Shown piece after piece: positions 31,201 to 34,200 of a DNA stretch of 37,235 nucleotides. The position numbers are program-made. Origin of the DNA: a virus (lineage: Duplodnaviria; Heunggongvirae; Uroviricota; Caudoviricetes). The number at the start of each line of letters is the position of its first letter. The first letter of the stretch is position 1. The stretch lies in the IMG/VR virus record IMGVR_UViG_2563366903_000020; one strand, written 5' to 3'.

Positions 31201-34200
31201 GCTATGGAGCAAGCAGACAAGAAGATTTTTTTTCATCTGTGGTACAGCTATTGGCTGGAAGAGATGGTTTTCATACTCAGCAATAAAGCCGCTGCCATGT
31301 TGCGCGCCGGGGCGCTGATTGCTGCGGTATTGTCCTTTCTTCTGGTTGGTTTTCCCGTCCTGATGAGCCTTTGGGGGCTGGCGTTTTTTGTTTTTTCCTG
31401 GTTTTGCAGCAAGTGTGAATTCGTCGCCGAACTGGCGTGCTGGCAGAAACAGAGCTACCTTCGTCTGATTACGCAAAGGGATTTCATGAGCACTGAACGC
31501 CTGATTGAGCGCATTCTGTATCTGGAAGAAACGAACAGCGCATCCATGAAGGCGTTTGTCAGGCCCGCAAAAAACAAAGCGAGCGCATCTGTTGGTCTGT
31601 CTGCCAGCGAGCATTTGCGTTACTCCGAAAGGTTAATCTGCTGGTTGTGCGGCGTCTGATCGACTCCCGGCTGCGTGATGCTTTTACCGTCTTCCCTGAC
31701 AGGCGGTAATGACACGTCTATGTTCAGCTTGAGTGCCATTGCGTACTCCGCCCGCGCGCCAGCTGAATCCTCCCAGCCTTCCAGCAAGTAAATGACATCG
31801 GCACACATGAGCATCGGAATACAAATACTCATGTACTGCTGCTGGCTTAATCCGTCAGGCAGTACGGCAGGATTAAGAACGATGTTTCCGGCGCACCGAA
31901 GTTTCAGGTCCTCCACGCAAAATGCCGTCCTGTTGTGTCTTTGCATCCGGTCATGGGACCGGCGATATAAATCACTGCCATGCTTTACCTCCCGTATTGC
32001 GTGTTGCTGTCAGCACGCGTACTTCTTCCATGTTCGTGGCGCAGAAGTGCGAACCGTTGATAAGGCGGATGTGATGCATCTCAGGGTGGCGATAACCTCC
32101 GGTGCTGATTCCCGGGTTCTTGCGCCAACGCTTCGTGGTGCCTGGATGGCGTTCATCCGGTAACCCTGATAAATGCGTCTGGTTTCCGGTGTGTCGGAAT
32201 TGGATATGGTGATGCTGGTCATGCCGCCCGTTTCCTGTGAAAGGCGGTCAAGCGCTGCCCTCAGACGAACGTGCTCGTCTTCATCGAATGGTTTTCCGTA
32301 GGCGGTGAAATTGTCCCGGCCACTGAATCGCAGGTAAGGGGGATCGCAGTACACGCAAAGCGTGTTGCCCATGCCGAACAGGTGACTGGCAGAGTTCAGC
32401 GTATCCTTAAAATCTGCGTGGATAAGCAGCGTTCGGGTGCTGTTTGCCTTGTCTGCAAATGCGCGGATTTCACGCTCAGGGAAGTAGGGCTTGCGGTAGC
32501 AGCCGAAAGGCACGTTAAAATCGCCTTTTCCGTTCACGCGGAACAAACCGTTAAAGCTGTGTCGGTTCAGGTACAAAAACATGGCGGCCAGTCGCAGTTC
32601 ACGGCGGTCGCTTATTCCCGTTCTGCTGTTCAGGAAGGCATGATTCTCTGCGTTAAAGGTTTCGCGAATGATGAGATAGTCACCCCTGTTGTTGTGGTTC
32701 AGGAACAGGGTTTTCGCCTCGTCGATCAGGCTGTCGGTGTTGTCCCTGGCTTGCCGGTAGAAATTAATCAGCGCACCATTGGAATCACCCAGGATGTAAC
32801 GCTTGTAACTGGTGTTCATGAATACCGATGCGCCACCCACAAACGGCTCAACCAGGCAGTCTGCTTCTGGCAGATGCGCCTTCAGTGTGTTCATGATGCG
32901 ACTTTTTCCGCCCACCCATTTAAGCGGCGTGCCGGATAACAGTTCTTTGCTCATAACGCGGCCTCTTTGTTATAGGTTTCGTGCGTTAATAAATCCCATG
33001 ACGCCCCGTTGTTTTTGCTCAGCAATCGCCAGCGAAAACCGATTCTTATTACCAGGTAGTCGTGGGGTTTTATGCGTGAAAAATTCCGCACGCCGTCGCG
33101 GAATAAACGCAGCGATGCGCGGGCTTTTCTTTCCACGTTCAGGGGGGGGCAGCAACACACATTCAGGATGGCGACCATGGCTTCACCTCATATGTTCAGG
33201 AATGGTGTTGTGAAGCGCTGCCAGATTTCTGACACGACCTTTGCCTGGTAAACGGCGTCGCCCAGCGCGGTGTGAGCAATGGTCTCTTTGCCTGATCTGC
33301 CTGGCATTTTCCATCCAGTTGATTCAGCCATGGCGATAAGCGGGCGCATACAGCGCTCGTTCCAGTAGCACCAGGGGATGCTTTTTTCTCCGGCTGTGCG
33401 TGTTATGGCGGATTTCAGGATCGGGAAATCGAAGGATGCGCCCTTACACCATATGTTCAGTGAATTGCCCGGGCTTTCGTCATGCATATTGCGTGAAATG
33501 AACGCCAGAAATTCGGTCACTGCTGCCAGCTCTGTTCCATCTGCGTTGCGCAGGCAGGCTCTGGCTTCCACGGATTGTCCGGCCCACCATACAGCGGTGG
33601 CTGCATTGACGGTTCCGCCGTTGCGTTCTGAATCCACCGGGTCGATGAATTTCTCAAACTGCTTGCCCAGCTTTCCGGTGAACGGGTCGAAAAACACCGC
33701 CCCAATCGCGAATATGGCTGCGTCCGGTCCGTTACCCAGTGTTTCGGTGTCAATCATGAGATGGTTCATTATGCGCACCCCTTCAGTTCGTCTGGGTTGG
33801 CGAGTATTGCAATCAGTCGTTCAATGGATGAACAGGTTTCCTCCGGGGAGGTGTGCTTCTCTCTCGCTGTGTTAACCAGGTCATGCAGCAATTCGCAGAT
33901 ATGCGCACGCTCGGCTTTTCTTGCGGCAATGCTGATATGTGCATGATGGTTAGCTGGTCTGGCGGTTATTTTTCTGCCTGGTGATTCGGCTGTTCTCATT
34001 TGTTGACTCCTGAAAAAAGACAAAGGGAACCCGAAGGCATGAATGCCTTAATTAATTGCTCGTGTGTTTTCTGGTGTTATTCCGCGCCTGCTTTCGGCTT
34101 CAGGTTATTCCCAGATCTTCAGGGCTAACCAGATAAGCGCACTCACCTGAAATATCACCCATACAGTGGCGATGGTGAGTATTGCTTTTACATTCTTCAT

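What the first reader, a model, noticed from the sequence alone, without database searches (positions are those of the whole stretch)
32010..33778. Dam methyltransferase plus DEDDh exonuclease module in the early operon
A Dam-like N6-adenine methyltransferase (DPPY motif) and a DnaQ-like 3'-5' exonuclease are adjacent in the early operon, positions with no counterpart in P2 proper. Such pairs are plausible anti-restriction or replication-fidelity functions. The Dam ORF carries a roughly 25-aa C-terminal extension beyond where Dam proteins usually end.
Basis: partly seen in the sequence, partly recalled or inferred. Interest (0 to 1): 0.45.

Follow-up and report, generated by a model that had tools for sequence, protein, structure and literature searches.

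The report
Prophage Dam methylase and DexA-like exonuclease

Summary
The genes are real and the family calls hold. Dam (32010-32954, minus strand) matches PF02086 and TIGR00571, and has DPPY at residues 204-207. The exonuclease (33188-33778) matches PF16473 with all five DEDDh residues; its nearest solved relative is T4 DexA.

Three corrections:
1. The two genes are not directly adjacent. A 75-aa ParE-like ORF (32951-33178) lies between them.
2. The Dam C-terminal "extension" is not a domain. Residues 293-314 are an out-of-frame reading of a downstream gene. A 478-bp deletion between two CTGAGA repeats fused it on and removed the native tail. That tail carries a CxxC-x7-CxxC motif, found in 111 of 113 full-length homologs.
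3. The exonuclease is the published E. coli "EcD" (Kang et al. 2025) or a close allele. Their forward cloning primer matches the window exactly. EcD was reported to degrade hydroxymethylcytosine DNA and protect against T4.

In P2-like phages, exonuclease followed by Dam is a conserved gene order (41 of 44 viral loci). It is absent where the exonuclease occurs in other phage types, so functional coupling is unproven. Both exact proteins sit on hundreds of public contigs with these same names. Verdict: ordinary and already known; low interest.

The parts
32010..32954 (-). Orphan Dam-family (D12-class) N6-adenine DNA methyltransferase, 314 aa. Residues 1-292 are the intact catalytic core.
   Evidence: PF02086 E=1.1e-51. 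TIGR00571 scores 226.9 bits, cutoff 114.85. It is 42.6% identical to E. coli Dam over 256 aligned positions. FVGG is at 38-41 and DPPY at 204-207. The best PADLOC model is orphan MTase, E=4.6e-76. The exact sequence is on 664 public contigs, named DNA adenine methylase.
32010..32078 (-). Junk C-terminal tail of Dam: residues 293-314 (CITSALSTVRTSAPRTWKKYAC) plus the stop codon. It is an out-of-frame reading of the 3' part of a 72-aa phage gene (phrog_3459) that is intact in related prophages.
   Evidence: DNA comparison with L002 (NZ_CP116067) shows that the same bases encode ...EMHHIRLINGSHFCATNMEEVRVL... in the intact gene there.
32079..32084 (-). Deletion junction. One copy of the 6-bp CTGAGA repeat (codons L291-R292) remains. 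L002 has two copies, 478 bp apart.
   Evidence: The two blastn pieces against L002 overlap at window 32079-32084, and the sequences were read directly. Deleted relative to L002: the native 34-aa Dam tail, a 78-aa gene (phrog_23826) and the 5' half of the 72-aa gene.
32951..33178 (-). 75-aa ParE-like small ORF between the exonuclease and Dam. Its stop overlaps the Dam start as ATGA.
   Evidence: PF24732 ParE_like E=1.1e-17, 64.3 bits against a cutoff of 24.4. phrog_1525, unknown function. 37 homolog clusters, all named ones from Enterobacterales. The AF2 model has pLDDT 86. Its best fold matches are HigB/YoeB/YafQ, but they are weak: E>=0.09, TM about 0.5.
33188..33778 (-). DexA/Rv2179c-like DEDDh 3'-5' exonuclease. 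It is 196 aa from the GTG, with a probable start at ATG 33769 (193 aa). The published 'EcD' construct starts at ATG 33757 (189 aa).
   Evidence: PF16473 E=2.5e-51. phrog_255 exonuclease E=9.4e-60. The nearest solved relative is T4 DexA (8KEN/8KEL), E=2.3e-12. D10, E12, D117, H169 and D174 are intact. The EcD forward primer matches 33741-33757 exactly.
33769..34023 (-). Small upstream ORF (84 aa from the TTG; 76 aa in RefSeq) whose stop overlaps the exonuclease start. Function unknown. It is co-inherited with the block.
   Evidence: phrog_22206 E=1.5e-52. No Pfam match. Annotated as hypothetical protein in L001 and L002. The overlap is seen.
31620..31981 (-). DUF4406 (nucleoside 2-deoxyribosyltransferase-like) gene just downstream of Dam. 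It is frameshifted in this window.
   Evidence: PF14359 E=2.1e-23, but the match starts at profile position 13. Intact homologs in L001 and L002 start MAVIYIAGPMTG. The window lacks one C near 31937-31942, and the ORF restarts at ATG 31946.

Best explanation
This is the variable accessory segment of the early (lytic) operon of a P2-like E. coli prophage. It holds separately acting accessory genes that are inherited together.

(1) Dam. Shown: a complete Dam-family catalytic core, with the residues that E. coli Dam uses to read GATC conserved, and no nuclease partner nearby. Inferred: it is transcribed from the early promoter on infection or induction. It then methylates GATC sites on the rapidly replicating phage DNA (156 sites in this window). 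Progeny DNA would be fully modified whatever the host Dam can manage, and so protected from enzymes that cut unmethylated GATC.

(2) Exonuclease. Shown: a DexA-type DEDDh 3'-5' DNA exonuclease. Inferred from primer and residue-numbering matches: it is the published 'EcD' or a close allele. EcD was reported to digest hydroxymethylcytosine-containing T4 DNA but not unmodified duplex DNA, and to protect cells from T4. Inferred: in its native setting it works as an inter-phage exclusion or competition nuclease, either during lytic growth or through leaky expression.

(3) The 75-aa ParE-like ORF sits between the two genes. Its start is 9 nt after the exonuclease stop and its stop overlaps the Dam start. 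Its role is unknown.

(4) Shown: the Dam 'extension' is an accident. A 478-bp deletion between two CTGAGA repeats removed the native four-cysteine tail and about one and a half small genes. Translation now runs 22 codons out of frame into the remnant of the next gene. Inferred: the catalytic core is untouched, so the enzyme probably still works.
For: Dam family and motifs:
- The E. coli Dam DNA-contact positions K9, N120, L122, R124, P134 and Y138 are identical here (K12, N134, L136, R138, P149, Y153). Y119 is Phe here. This is from the alignment; the roles of these residues come from my knowledge of the E. coli Dam-DNA structure.
- No endonuclease gene is nearby.
- GATC is not avoided: 156 sites, observed/expected 0.86.

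Operon placement:
- The genes share the strand of cox and gene A. Stops and starts overlap or lie close together.

Exonuclease:
- PF16473 match, DexA as the nearest solved relative, and DEDDh intact.
- The EcD forward primer ATGATTGACACCGAAAC matches 33741-33757 exactly. The gene-specific part of the reverse primer equals the window's 3' end (...ACCATTCCTGAACATATGA) apart from one extra A.
- EcD 'A78' fits. Counting from that Met, the Ala aligned to DexA D90 is residue 78.
- The DexA W152 equivalent is Trp and the D169 equivalent is Glu.
- EcD activity and T4 protection are from PMC12153337.

Deletion scar:
- Junction and frames were read directly.
- Both deleted genes belong to real phage families.
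- The native tail motif is present in 111 of 113 full-length homologs. Its four Cys are invariant in 50 sequences down to 48% identity.

Ordinariness:
- RefSeq annotates the same three gene names in 29-31 complete E. coli genomes.
- The exact Dam is on 664 contigs and the exact exonuclease on at least 1000.
Against: - No experiment addresses this Dam allele. GATC specificity is inferred from conserved residues.
- Identity with EcD rests on primers and residue numbering. I did not see the accession's sequence, and the EcD claims come from one paper using plasmid expression.
- An early-operon gene should be repressed in a lysogen. The promoter scan showed no internal promoter upstream of the block: 7 promoter-like sites in the whole region scanned, against 5.0 expected by chance. 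A defence role in the lysogen is therefore doubtful.
- Exonuclease-then-Dam order persists in 41 of 44 P2-like viral loci, even where both proteins are below 50% identical to the window's. This could mean functional coupling, which this explanation denies.
- The Ala/Trp/Glu signature that the paper links to 5hmC recognition occurs only in the window and its six closest relatives in the sample.
Confidence: 0.6

Rival explanations
1. The exonuclease, the ParE-like ORF and Dam form one functional unit that tells self from non-self DNA. Dam marks phage DNA with m6A, and the modification-sensitive DexA-type exonuclease degrades differently modified or unmarked competitor or host DNA. This would resemble restriction-modification, but with an exonuclease.
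For: Exonuclease followed by Dam within 1.3 kb occurs in 41 of 44 IMG/VR loci that also carry P2-type gene A. In most of them both proteins are only about 45-50% identical to the window's, and the flanking small genes vary. The same order is seen in Citrobacter, Salmonella and Klebsiella prophages. In the non-P2 Citrobacter phage phiNP, an unrelated adenine methylase (PF01555) sits about 190 bp upstream of an exonuclease homolog. Stops and starts in the block overlap or lie close together.
Against: Twelve non-P2 loci with room for a neighbouring gene have no Dam, and only one has the phiNP-type methylase. In Rhodobacter phages the exonuclease sits next to a DNA polymerase. Dam occurs without the exonuclease in an E. 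coli lineage (86% identical Dam) and in Salmonella phage SW3. In Citrobacter and Salmonella prophages the exonuclease homolog beside Dam has lost its catalytic residues. An exonuclease needs DNA ends, and no endonuclease is present. The reported EcD specificity concerns 5hmC, not m6A.
Confidence: 0.15
2. The exonuclease serves the phage's own DNA metabolism. It might proofread or trim 3' ends during rolling-circle replication, or scavenge host DNA as T4 DexA does. Dam over-methylation would then keep MutH from nicking hemimethylated replication intermediates.
For: The protein has the DnaQ fold with intact DEDDh residues. It lies among replication-related early genes, upstream of gene A. In Rhodobacter phages the homolog is immediately upstream of a DNA polymerase. 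[quoted passage not shown]
Against: P2 itself replicates without either gene. Some relatives have catalytically dead copies. EcD was reported to be inactive on unmodified duplex DNA at 25 C. I found no direct evidence for any replication role.
Confidence: 0.15
3. The exonuclease is a true lysogenic-conversion defence gene ('HREX'). It would be expressed constitutively in the lysogen to destroy incoming T-even DNA, as P2 tin and old are expressed.
For: Plasmid-borne EcD protected E. coli from T4 even without induction (PMC12153337). P2-like prophages are known to carry exclusion genes; tin is annotated as blocking T-even phages.
Against: The gene lies inside the repressor-controlled early operon, not in the separately transcribed tin/old position. 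Its start overlaps the stop of the upstream ORF. No promoter-like site was found on its strand in the 189-bp gap upstream of the block. An unrelated prophage Dam homolog in E. coli EC958 was transcriptionally silent in the lysogen (PMC4659465); that gene is not this one. The paper never considers prophage context ('prophage' occurs 0 times).
Confidence: 0.1

Closest known systems
E. coli Dam (PDB 2G1P and others) and phage-borne orphan Dam methylases such as T4 Dam
   Same: Same D12-class fold and motif order, with FxGxG before DPPY. 42.6% identical to E. coli Dam across the whole catalytic core. GATC-contact residues are conserved. There is no partner endonuclease.
   Different: It is not the chromosomal ortholog: NF008152 scores 218.8 bits against a cutoff of 441. 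Relative to E. coli Dam it has two insertions, of 13 and 6 residues. Its clade normally ends in a CxxC-x7-CxxC tail that E. coli Dam lacks. In this window that tail has been replaced by 22 residues of frame-shifted sequence.
EcD, the E. coli DexA homolog of the 'HREX' proposal (Kang et al., Nucleic Acids Res 2025, PMC12153337)
   Same: Apparently the same gene or a close allele. The forward primer matches exactly, and the reverse primer matches apart from one extra base. Ala78 numbering fits, Trp and an acidic residue occupy the DexA W152 and D169 positions, and DEDDh is intact.
   Different: The paper treats it as a bacterial defence gene. Here it sits in the early operon of a P2-like prophage, beside Dam and a ParE-like ORF. 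The published construct starts at an internal Met (189 aa). I could not check the accession HAK9828821.1 directly.
T4 DexA (exonuclease A; PDB 8KEL/8KEN) and the Rv2179c-like family (PF16473)
   Same: DEDDh 3'-5' exonuclease domain. phmmer E=2.3e-12 to DexA, and PF16473 is matched over its full length.
   Different: About 28% identity to DexA. It lacks DexA's extra loops and helices (193 versus 227 aa). The tetramer-forming D90 is Ala here.
Exonuclease-Dam blocks of other Peduoviridae, such as Klebsiella phage 3LV2017 and Citrobacter or Salmonella prophages
   Same: Same order and same position, upstream of gene A in the early operon. Citrobacter prophages also carry the ParE-like ORF between the two genes.
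   Different: The proteins are 46-51% identical. In 3LV2017 and the Salmonella locus the exonuclease abuts Dam directly. The Citrobacter and Salmonella exonuclease copies have lost their catalytic residues. In Salmonella phage SW3 the ParE-like ORF follows Dam and there is no exonuclease.
RelE/ParE-superfamily toxins (HigB, YoeB, YafQ)
   Same: The 75-aa ORF matches PF24732, and its confident AF2 model retrieves these toxins first.
   Different: The fold matches are not significant (E>=0.09, TM about 0.5). The protein is shorter than these toxins. There is no adjacent antitoxin-like gene, and its neighbours are the exonuclease and Dam.

Membership tests
Dam family / D12-class N6-adenine DNA methyltransferase | Profile match above the curated threshold | tested here: met
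   PF02086 scores 176.4 bits against a cutoff of 22. TIGR00571 scores 226.9 against 114.85.
Dam family / D12-class N6-adenine DNA methyltransferase | AdoMet-binding FxGxG motif placed N-terminal to the catalytic DPPY motif | tested here: met
   FVGG at 38-41 and DPPY at 204-207, aligned to E. coli Dam D181-Y184.
Dam family / D12-class N6-adenine DNA methyltransferase | GATC-reading residues of E. coli Dam (K9, Y119, N120, L122, R124, P134, Y138; roles from my knowledge of the Dam-DNA structure) | tested here: met
   K12, N134, L136, R138, P149 and Y153 are identical. Y119 is Phe133 (alignment, positions).
Dam family / D12-class N6-adenine DNA methyltransferase | Measured m6A methylation of GATC | not testable with these tools
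   Needs expression in a dam-minus host, followed by DpnI/MboI digestion or methylation-aware sequencing.
Chromosomal E. coli Dam ortholog (NF008152 equivalog) | Score above the equivalog cutoff | tested here: not met
   218.8 bits against a cutoff of 441. It belongs to the family but is not the housekeeping ortholog.
Type II restriction-modification system | Cognate restriction endonuclease gene next to the methylase | tested here: not met
   The neighbours are the ParE-like ORF, the exonuclease and DUF4406, with no endonuclease family among them. The best PADLOC model is 'orphan methyltransferase'.
Rv2179c-like / DexA DEDDh 3'-5' exonucleases (PF16473) | Full-length profile match above threshold | tested here: met
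   174.3 bits against a cutoff of 27, covering profile positions 1-177 of 177.
Rv2179c-like / DexA DEDDh 3'-5' exonucleases (PF16473) | Five catalytic residues: D, E, D, then H-x4-D | tested here: met
   D10 and E12 (DTET), D117 (SFDFP), H169 and D174 (HTALGD), aligned to the DexA catalytic residues.
EcD / 'HREX' (PMC12153337) | Same gene as the cloned EcD | tested here: met
   The forward primer matches 17 of 17 bases at 33741-33757. The reverse primer equals the 3' end apart from one inserted A. Ala78 numbering fits. The accession's sequence itself was not seen.
EcD / 'HREX' (PMC12153337) | Loss of the tetramer residue (DexA D90), with Trp (W152) and an acidic residue (D169) retained | tested here: met
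   Ala, Trp and Glu at the aligned columns.
EcD / 'HREX' (PMC12153337) | Expressed in the uninfected lysogen, so that it can act as a defence | tested here: inconclusive
   The gene lies in the early operon. No promoter-like site was found on its strand upstream of the block, but the consensus scan is weak evidence (7 sites against 5.0 expected).
RelE/ParE toxin-antitoxin toxin (the 75-aa ORF) | Profile match to a ParE-like family | tested here: met
   PF24732 scores 64.3 bits against a cutoff of 24.4.
RelE/ParE toxin-antitoxin toxin (the 75-aa ORF) | RelE/ParE fold | tested here: inconclusive
   The AF2 model has pLDDT 86. The top Foldseek matches are HigB, YoeB and YafQ, but with E>=0.09 and TM about 0.5.
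RelE/ParE toxin-antitoxin toxin (the 75-aa ORF) | Adjacent cognate antitoxin gene | tested here: not met
   It is flanked directly by the exonuclease (9-nt gap) and Dam (ATGA overlap), with no antitoxin-like ORF. The same holds in Citrobacter loci and in SW3.

The most novel reading that the evidence does not exclude
The exonuclease, the ParE-like ORF and Dam may be a co-selected inter-phage weapon of P2-like phages rather than three unrelated accessory genes. A modification enzyme and a modification-sensing DexA-type exonuclease would act together during lytic growth. On this reading, the published 'bacterial HREX defence' would really be a prophage early-operon function. The conserved four-cysteine tail of this Dam clade, lost here by deletion, might tether or regulate the enzyme within that unit.
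Probability: 0.12. Interest if true: 0.55.

Novelty: already known. Interest (0 to 1): 0.2.

Why it matters
The practical value is mostly corrective.

- The Dam 'extension' should not be read as a new domain. It is 22 residues of frame-shifted sequence created by a deletion. The feature that is actually conserved in this prophage Dam clade is a four-cysteine C-terminal motif, which this copy has lost.
- The exonuclease recently published as a bacterial anti-T4 defence (EcD/HREX) appears to be a gene of the repressor-controlled early operon of a P2-like prophage. That raises the question of when it is expressed in nature, and whom it serves.
- Neither point alters what is known about Dam methylases or DEDDh exonucleases.

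Tried and rejected
- Megablast of the block against the phage collection found nothing. Protein-level searches were needed.
- The promoter/terminator scan gave background-level counts: 7 promoter-like sites against 5.0 expected. It cannot settle whether the block has its own promoter.
- Foldseek of the ParE-like model returned RelE-superfamily toxins first, but none was significant.
- A Pfam scan of the native Dam tail gave only sub-threshold zinc-ribbon hits.
- AlphaFold of the native 326-aa Dam (P0001, 50-sequence alignment) was poor. Mean pLDDT was 56.6 and about 30 in the tail, so nothing can be said about the tail's fold.
- I considered that the window form might be ancestral, with L002 carrying an insertion. 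I rejected this for three reasons. The tail motif is conserved across genera. Both 'extra' genes belong to real phage families. The window's tail is the same DNA read out of frame.
- I checked whether the silent prophage Dam M.EcoMIV of E. coli EC958 (PMC4659465) is this gene. EC958 is not among the 31 genomes carrying the block, so that paper is only an analogy.
- A literature search for Peduoviridae, DNA adenine methylase and exonuclease together returned no paper.
- The Salmonella prophage transcriptome paper (PMC7067206) mentions neither Fels-2 nor these genes.
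Full report
**What is at the coordinates**

The window's high-coordinate end carries the early operon of a P2-like prophage on the minus strand. The order, from higher to lower coordinates, is:
- a Cox-like gene (35203-35727), facing a divergent HTH repressor gene (35832-36173);
- small ORFs, including DUF4761 and DUF4754 genes;
- an 84-aa ORF (33769-34023);
- the 196-aa exonuclease ORF (33188-33778);
- a 75-aa ORF (32951-33178);
- the 314-aa Dam ORF (32010-32954);
- a DUF4406 gene;
- a stretch of about 1.1 kb holding two RNA genes;
- 73-aa and 138-aa ORFs;
- replication gene A (27589-30102, PF05840 E=2e-108).

The annotated P2 early operon (cox, orf78, B, orf80-83, A) has no methylase and no exonuclease. 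A paper on P2-like Burkholderia phages also states that P2 encodes no methylase (PMC3091744).

**Dam**

- The ORF matches PF02086 (E=1.1e-51) and TIGR00571 (226.9 bits against a cutoff of 114.85). It falls below the cutoff for the chromosomal Dam equivalog (218.8 against 441).
- It aligns with E. coli Dam residues 8-267 over its own residues 11-290, at 42.6% identity.
- FVGG is at 38-41 and DPPY at 204-207.
- The positions that E. coli Dam uses to read GATC are identical, except that Y119 is Phe here. The alignment is; the residue roles are from my own knowledge of the Dam-DNA structure.
- No endonuclease gene is nearby, and the best PADLOC model is 'orphan methyltransferase'.
- The window has 156 GATC sites, with observed/expected 0.86, so the motif is not avoided.

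**The C-terminal extension**

I compared the window with a 98%-identical E. coli prophage, L002 (NZ_CP116067). The window lacks 478 bp that L002 has.

In L002 the Dam protein is 326 aa. It is followed by a 78-aa gene and a 72-aa gene, both in recognised phage families (phrog_23826 and phrog_3459), and then by DUF4406. L002 has the hexamer CTGAGA twice, once in Dam codons 291-292 and once inside the 72-aa gene. The window has a single copy, at 32079-32084, joining the two flanks.

Downstream of the junction the window reads the remnant of the 72-aa gene in the wrong frame. This gives CITSALSTVRTSAPRTWKKYAC and then a stop. In the intact gene the same bases encode ...MHHIRLINGSHFCATNMEEVRVL....

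The lost native tail reads QCDACGRHGGGYCPDCGPV..TY. A C-x2-C-x(5-12)-C-x2-C pattern is present in 111 of 113 full-length homologs retrieved. The four Cys are invariant in a 50-sequence alignment reaching down to 48% identity.

The direction of the event is therefore a deletion in the window's lineage, not an insertion in L002. Twenty-four residues lie beyond the last one alignable with E. coli Dam, of which 22 are foreign. It is a scar, not a domain.

The deleted form is nonetheless common. The exact 314-aa protein is on 664 public contigs and a 326-aa form on 511. The same '...EVIATL' point is also the junction in a third variant (297 aa), which is followed by a different gene. The Dam 3' end thus behaves as a mosaic boundary.

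**The exonuclease**

- PF16473 (Rv2179c-like) is matched end to end (E=2.5e-51).
- The nearest solved relative by sequence is T4 DexA (8KEN/8KEL, E=2.3e-12).
- D10, E12, D117, H169 and D174 are all present.

A 2025 paper on DexA describes an E. coli homolog, 'EcD'. It is reported to digest 5hmC-containing DNA and the T4 genome, but not unmodified duplex DNA at 25 C. It is also reported to protect cells from T4 when carried on a plasmid (PMC12153337).

Three things tie EcD to this ORF:
- The EcD forward primer in that paper's supplement (ATGATTGACACCGAAAC) matches window 33741-33757 exactly.
- The gene-specific part of the reverse primer equals the ORF's 3' end, apart from one extra A.
- The paper's 'A78' is the Ala that aligns with DexA D90, when residues are counted from that internal Met.

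The residues the paper links to 5hmC recognition (W152 and D169) correspond to Trp and Glu here. I conclude that the ORF is EcD or a close allele. This is an inference, because I did not see the accession's sequence. The paper never mentions prophages.

**The ORF in between**

The 75-aa ORF matches PF24732 (ParE_like, E=1.1e-17), and RefSeq annotates it as 'ParE family toxin-like protein'. It starts 9 nt after the exonuclease stop, and its own stop overlaps the Dam start.

Its family is small: 37 clusters, and all the named ones are from Enterobacterales. A confident AF2 model (pLDDT 86) retrieves HigB, YoeB and YafQ first, but with non-significant scores. There is no antitoxin-like neighbour. 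I leave its role open.

**Is it a module?**

Among 80 IMG/VR loci carrying an exonuclease homolog:
- 44 also carry P2-type gene A. Of these, 41 have Dam within 1.3 kb downstream of the exonuclease, and 14 of those also have the ParE-like ORF.
- 12 loci of other phage types, with room for a neighbouring gene, have no Dam. Only one of them has a different adenine methylase.

The same order is seen in Klebsiella phage 3LV2017 and in Citrobacter and Salmonella prophages. Against coupling:
- An E. coli lineage with an 86%-identical Dam has no exonuclease.
- Salmonella phage SW3 has Dam followed by the ParE-like ORF, with no exonuclease.
- Rhodobacter phages place the exonuclease next to a DNA polymerase.
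- The Citrobacter and Salmonella copies beside Dam have lost their catalytic residues.

The adjacency is therefore best explained as synteny within one phage lineage. Functional coupling remains possible but is not shown.

**How it most likely works**

- On infection or induction, the early promoter drives the operon (inferred from gene order and from overlapping or closely spaced stops and starts).
- Dam methylates GATC on the replicating phage DNA (inferred from the conserved core).
- The exonuclease degrades DNA from 3' ends and, if the EcD report holds, prefers hmC-containing T-even DNA. It would then act in competition between phages.
- Whether it is expressed in an uninduced lysogen is unknown. 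The consensus scan found no promoter on its strand upstream of the block, but that scan is weak evidence.

**Novelty and verdict**

RefSeq already annotates the three genes with these names in 29-31 of 5,426 complete E. coli genomes. The exact proteins are abundant in public data. The exonuclease has apparently been characterised. The finding is ordinary. The useful additions are the explanation of the tail and the prophage context of EcD.

Noticed in passing
window 30584-31059, minus strand: Rfam finds isrK (30985-31059, 67.2 bits) and a C4 antisense RNA (30862-30949, 82.1 bits), both above their gathering scores. Directly after them comes a 73-aa ORF (30584-30805) matching PF25738 'Derepression protein' (27.9 bits, cutoff 27). 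This looks like a P1/P4/Gifsy-1-style RNA-controlled antirepressor cassette, placed inside a P2-like early operon just upstream of gene A. A promoter-like site (31095-31066) and a terminator-like hairpin (31005-30990) flank isrK.
   Followed up: partly
window 31620-31981, minus strand: The DUF4406 gene is frameshifted here. One C is missing near 31937-31942 relative to L001 and L002, which cuts off the conserved N-terminus MAVIYIAGPMTG. The ORF restarts at ATG 31946. This is either a pseudogene or a sequencing error.
   Followed up: partly
outside the window: L002 4960-5064 and homologs P0001-P0120: The prophage Dam clade has a conserved C-terminal tail, VCDxCGRxGGGxCPDCGPV..TY. Its four Cys are invariant, and it is present in 111 of 113 full-length homologs. 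It matches no Pfam family above threshold, and I found no description of it. Many Klebsiella, Citrobacter and Enterobacter versions end in an acidic stretch followed by Phe (EGF, EAF, EPF).
   Followed up: partly
L009 4015-4581 and L013 4424-4990 (Citrobacter and Salmonella P2-like prophages): The exonuclease homologs beside Dam have lost DEDDh residues. They have DLLN in place of DTET, no SFDFP motif, and His replaced by Arg, yet they remain full-length ORFs in the same position. They may be pseudo-enzymes or decaying genes.
   Followed up: no
window 31186-31659, plus strand: A 157-aa ORF with a hydrophobic segment (phrog_6315, no Pfam match) runs convergent to the early operon and overlaps the 3' end of DUF4406. 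RefSeq annotates its homolog as a hypothetical protein. It could be an independently expressed accessory gene.
   Followed up: no
window 34024-34212, minus strand: The 189-bp 'gap' upstream of the exonuclease block holds a 31-aa hydrophobic ORF (34105-34200, MKNVKAILTIATVWVIFQVSALIWLALKIWE), which is also present in L001 and L002. It is followed by a short hairpin and a T-run at about 34025-34040. P2 has a putative terminator inside its early operon too.
   Followed up: no
window 32085-32092 and related loci L100/L101: The Dam 3' end '...EVIATL' is a recurrent recombination point. Three different continuations exist among near-identical Dam genes: the native four-cysteine tail, the window's frame-shifted tail, and 'TPTEQPEQ' followed by a 178-183-aa gene.
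   Followed up: partly
IMG/VR loci L020-L099: The Ala/Trp/Glu residue signature that the EcD paper links to 5hmC recognition occurs only in the window and its six closest relatives in the sample. Other P2-like exonuclease homologs have E, F, D or K at the D90 position and G, K or R at the D169 position, so the proposed specificity may not extend to the wider family.
   Followed up: partly
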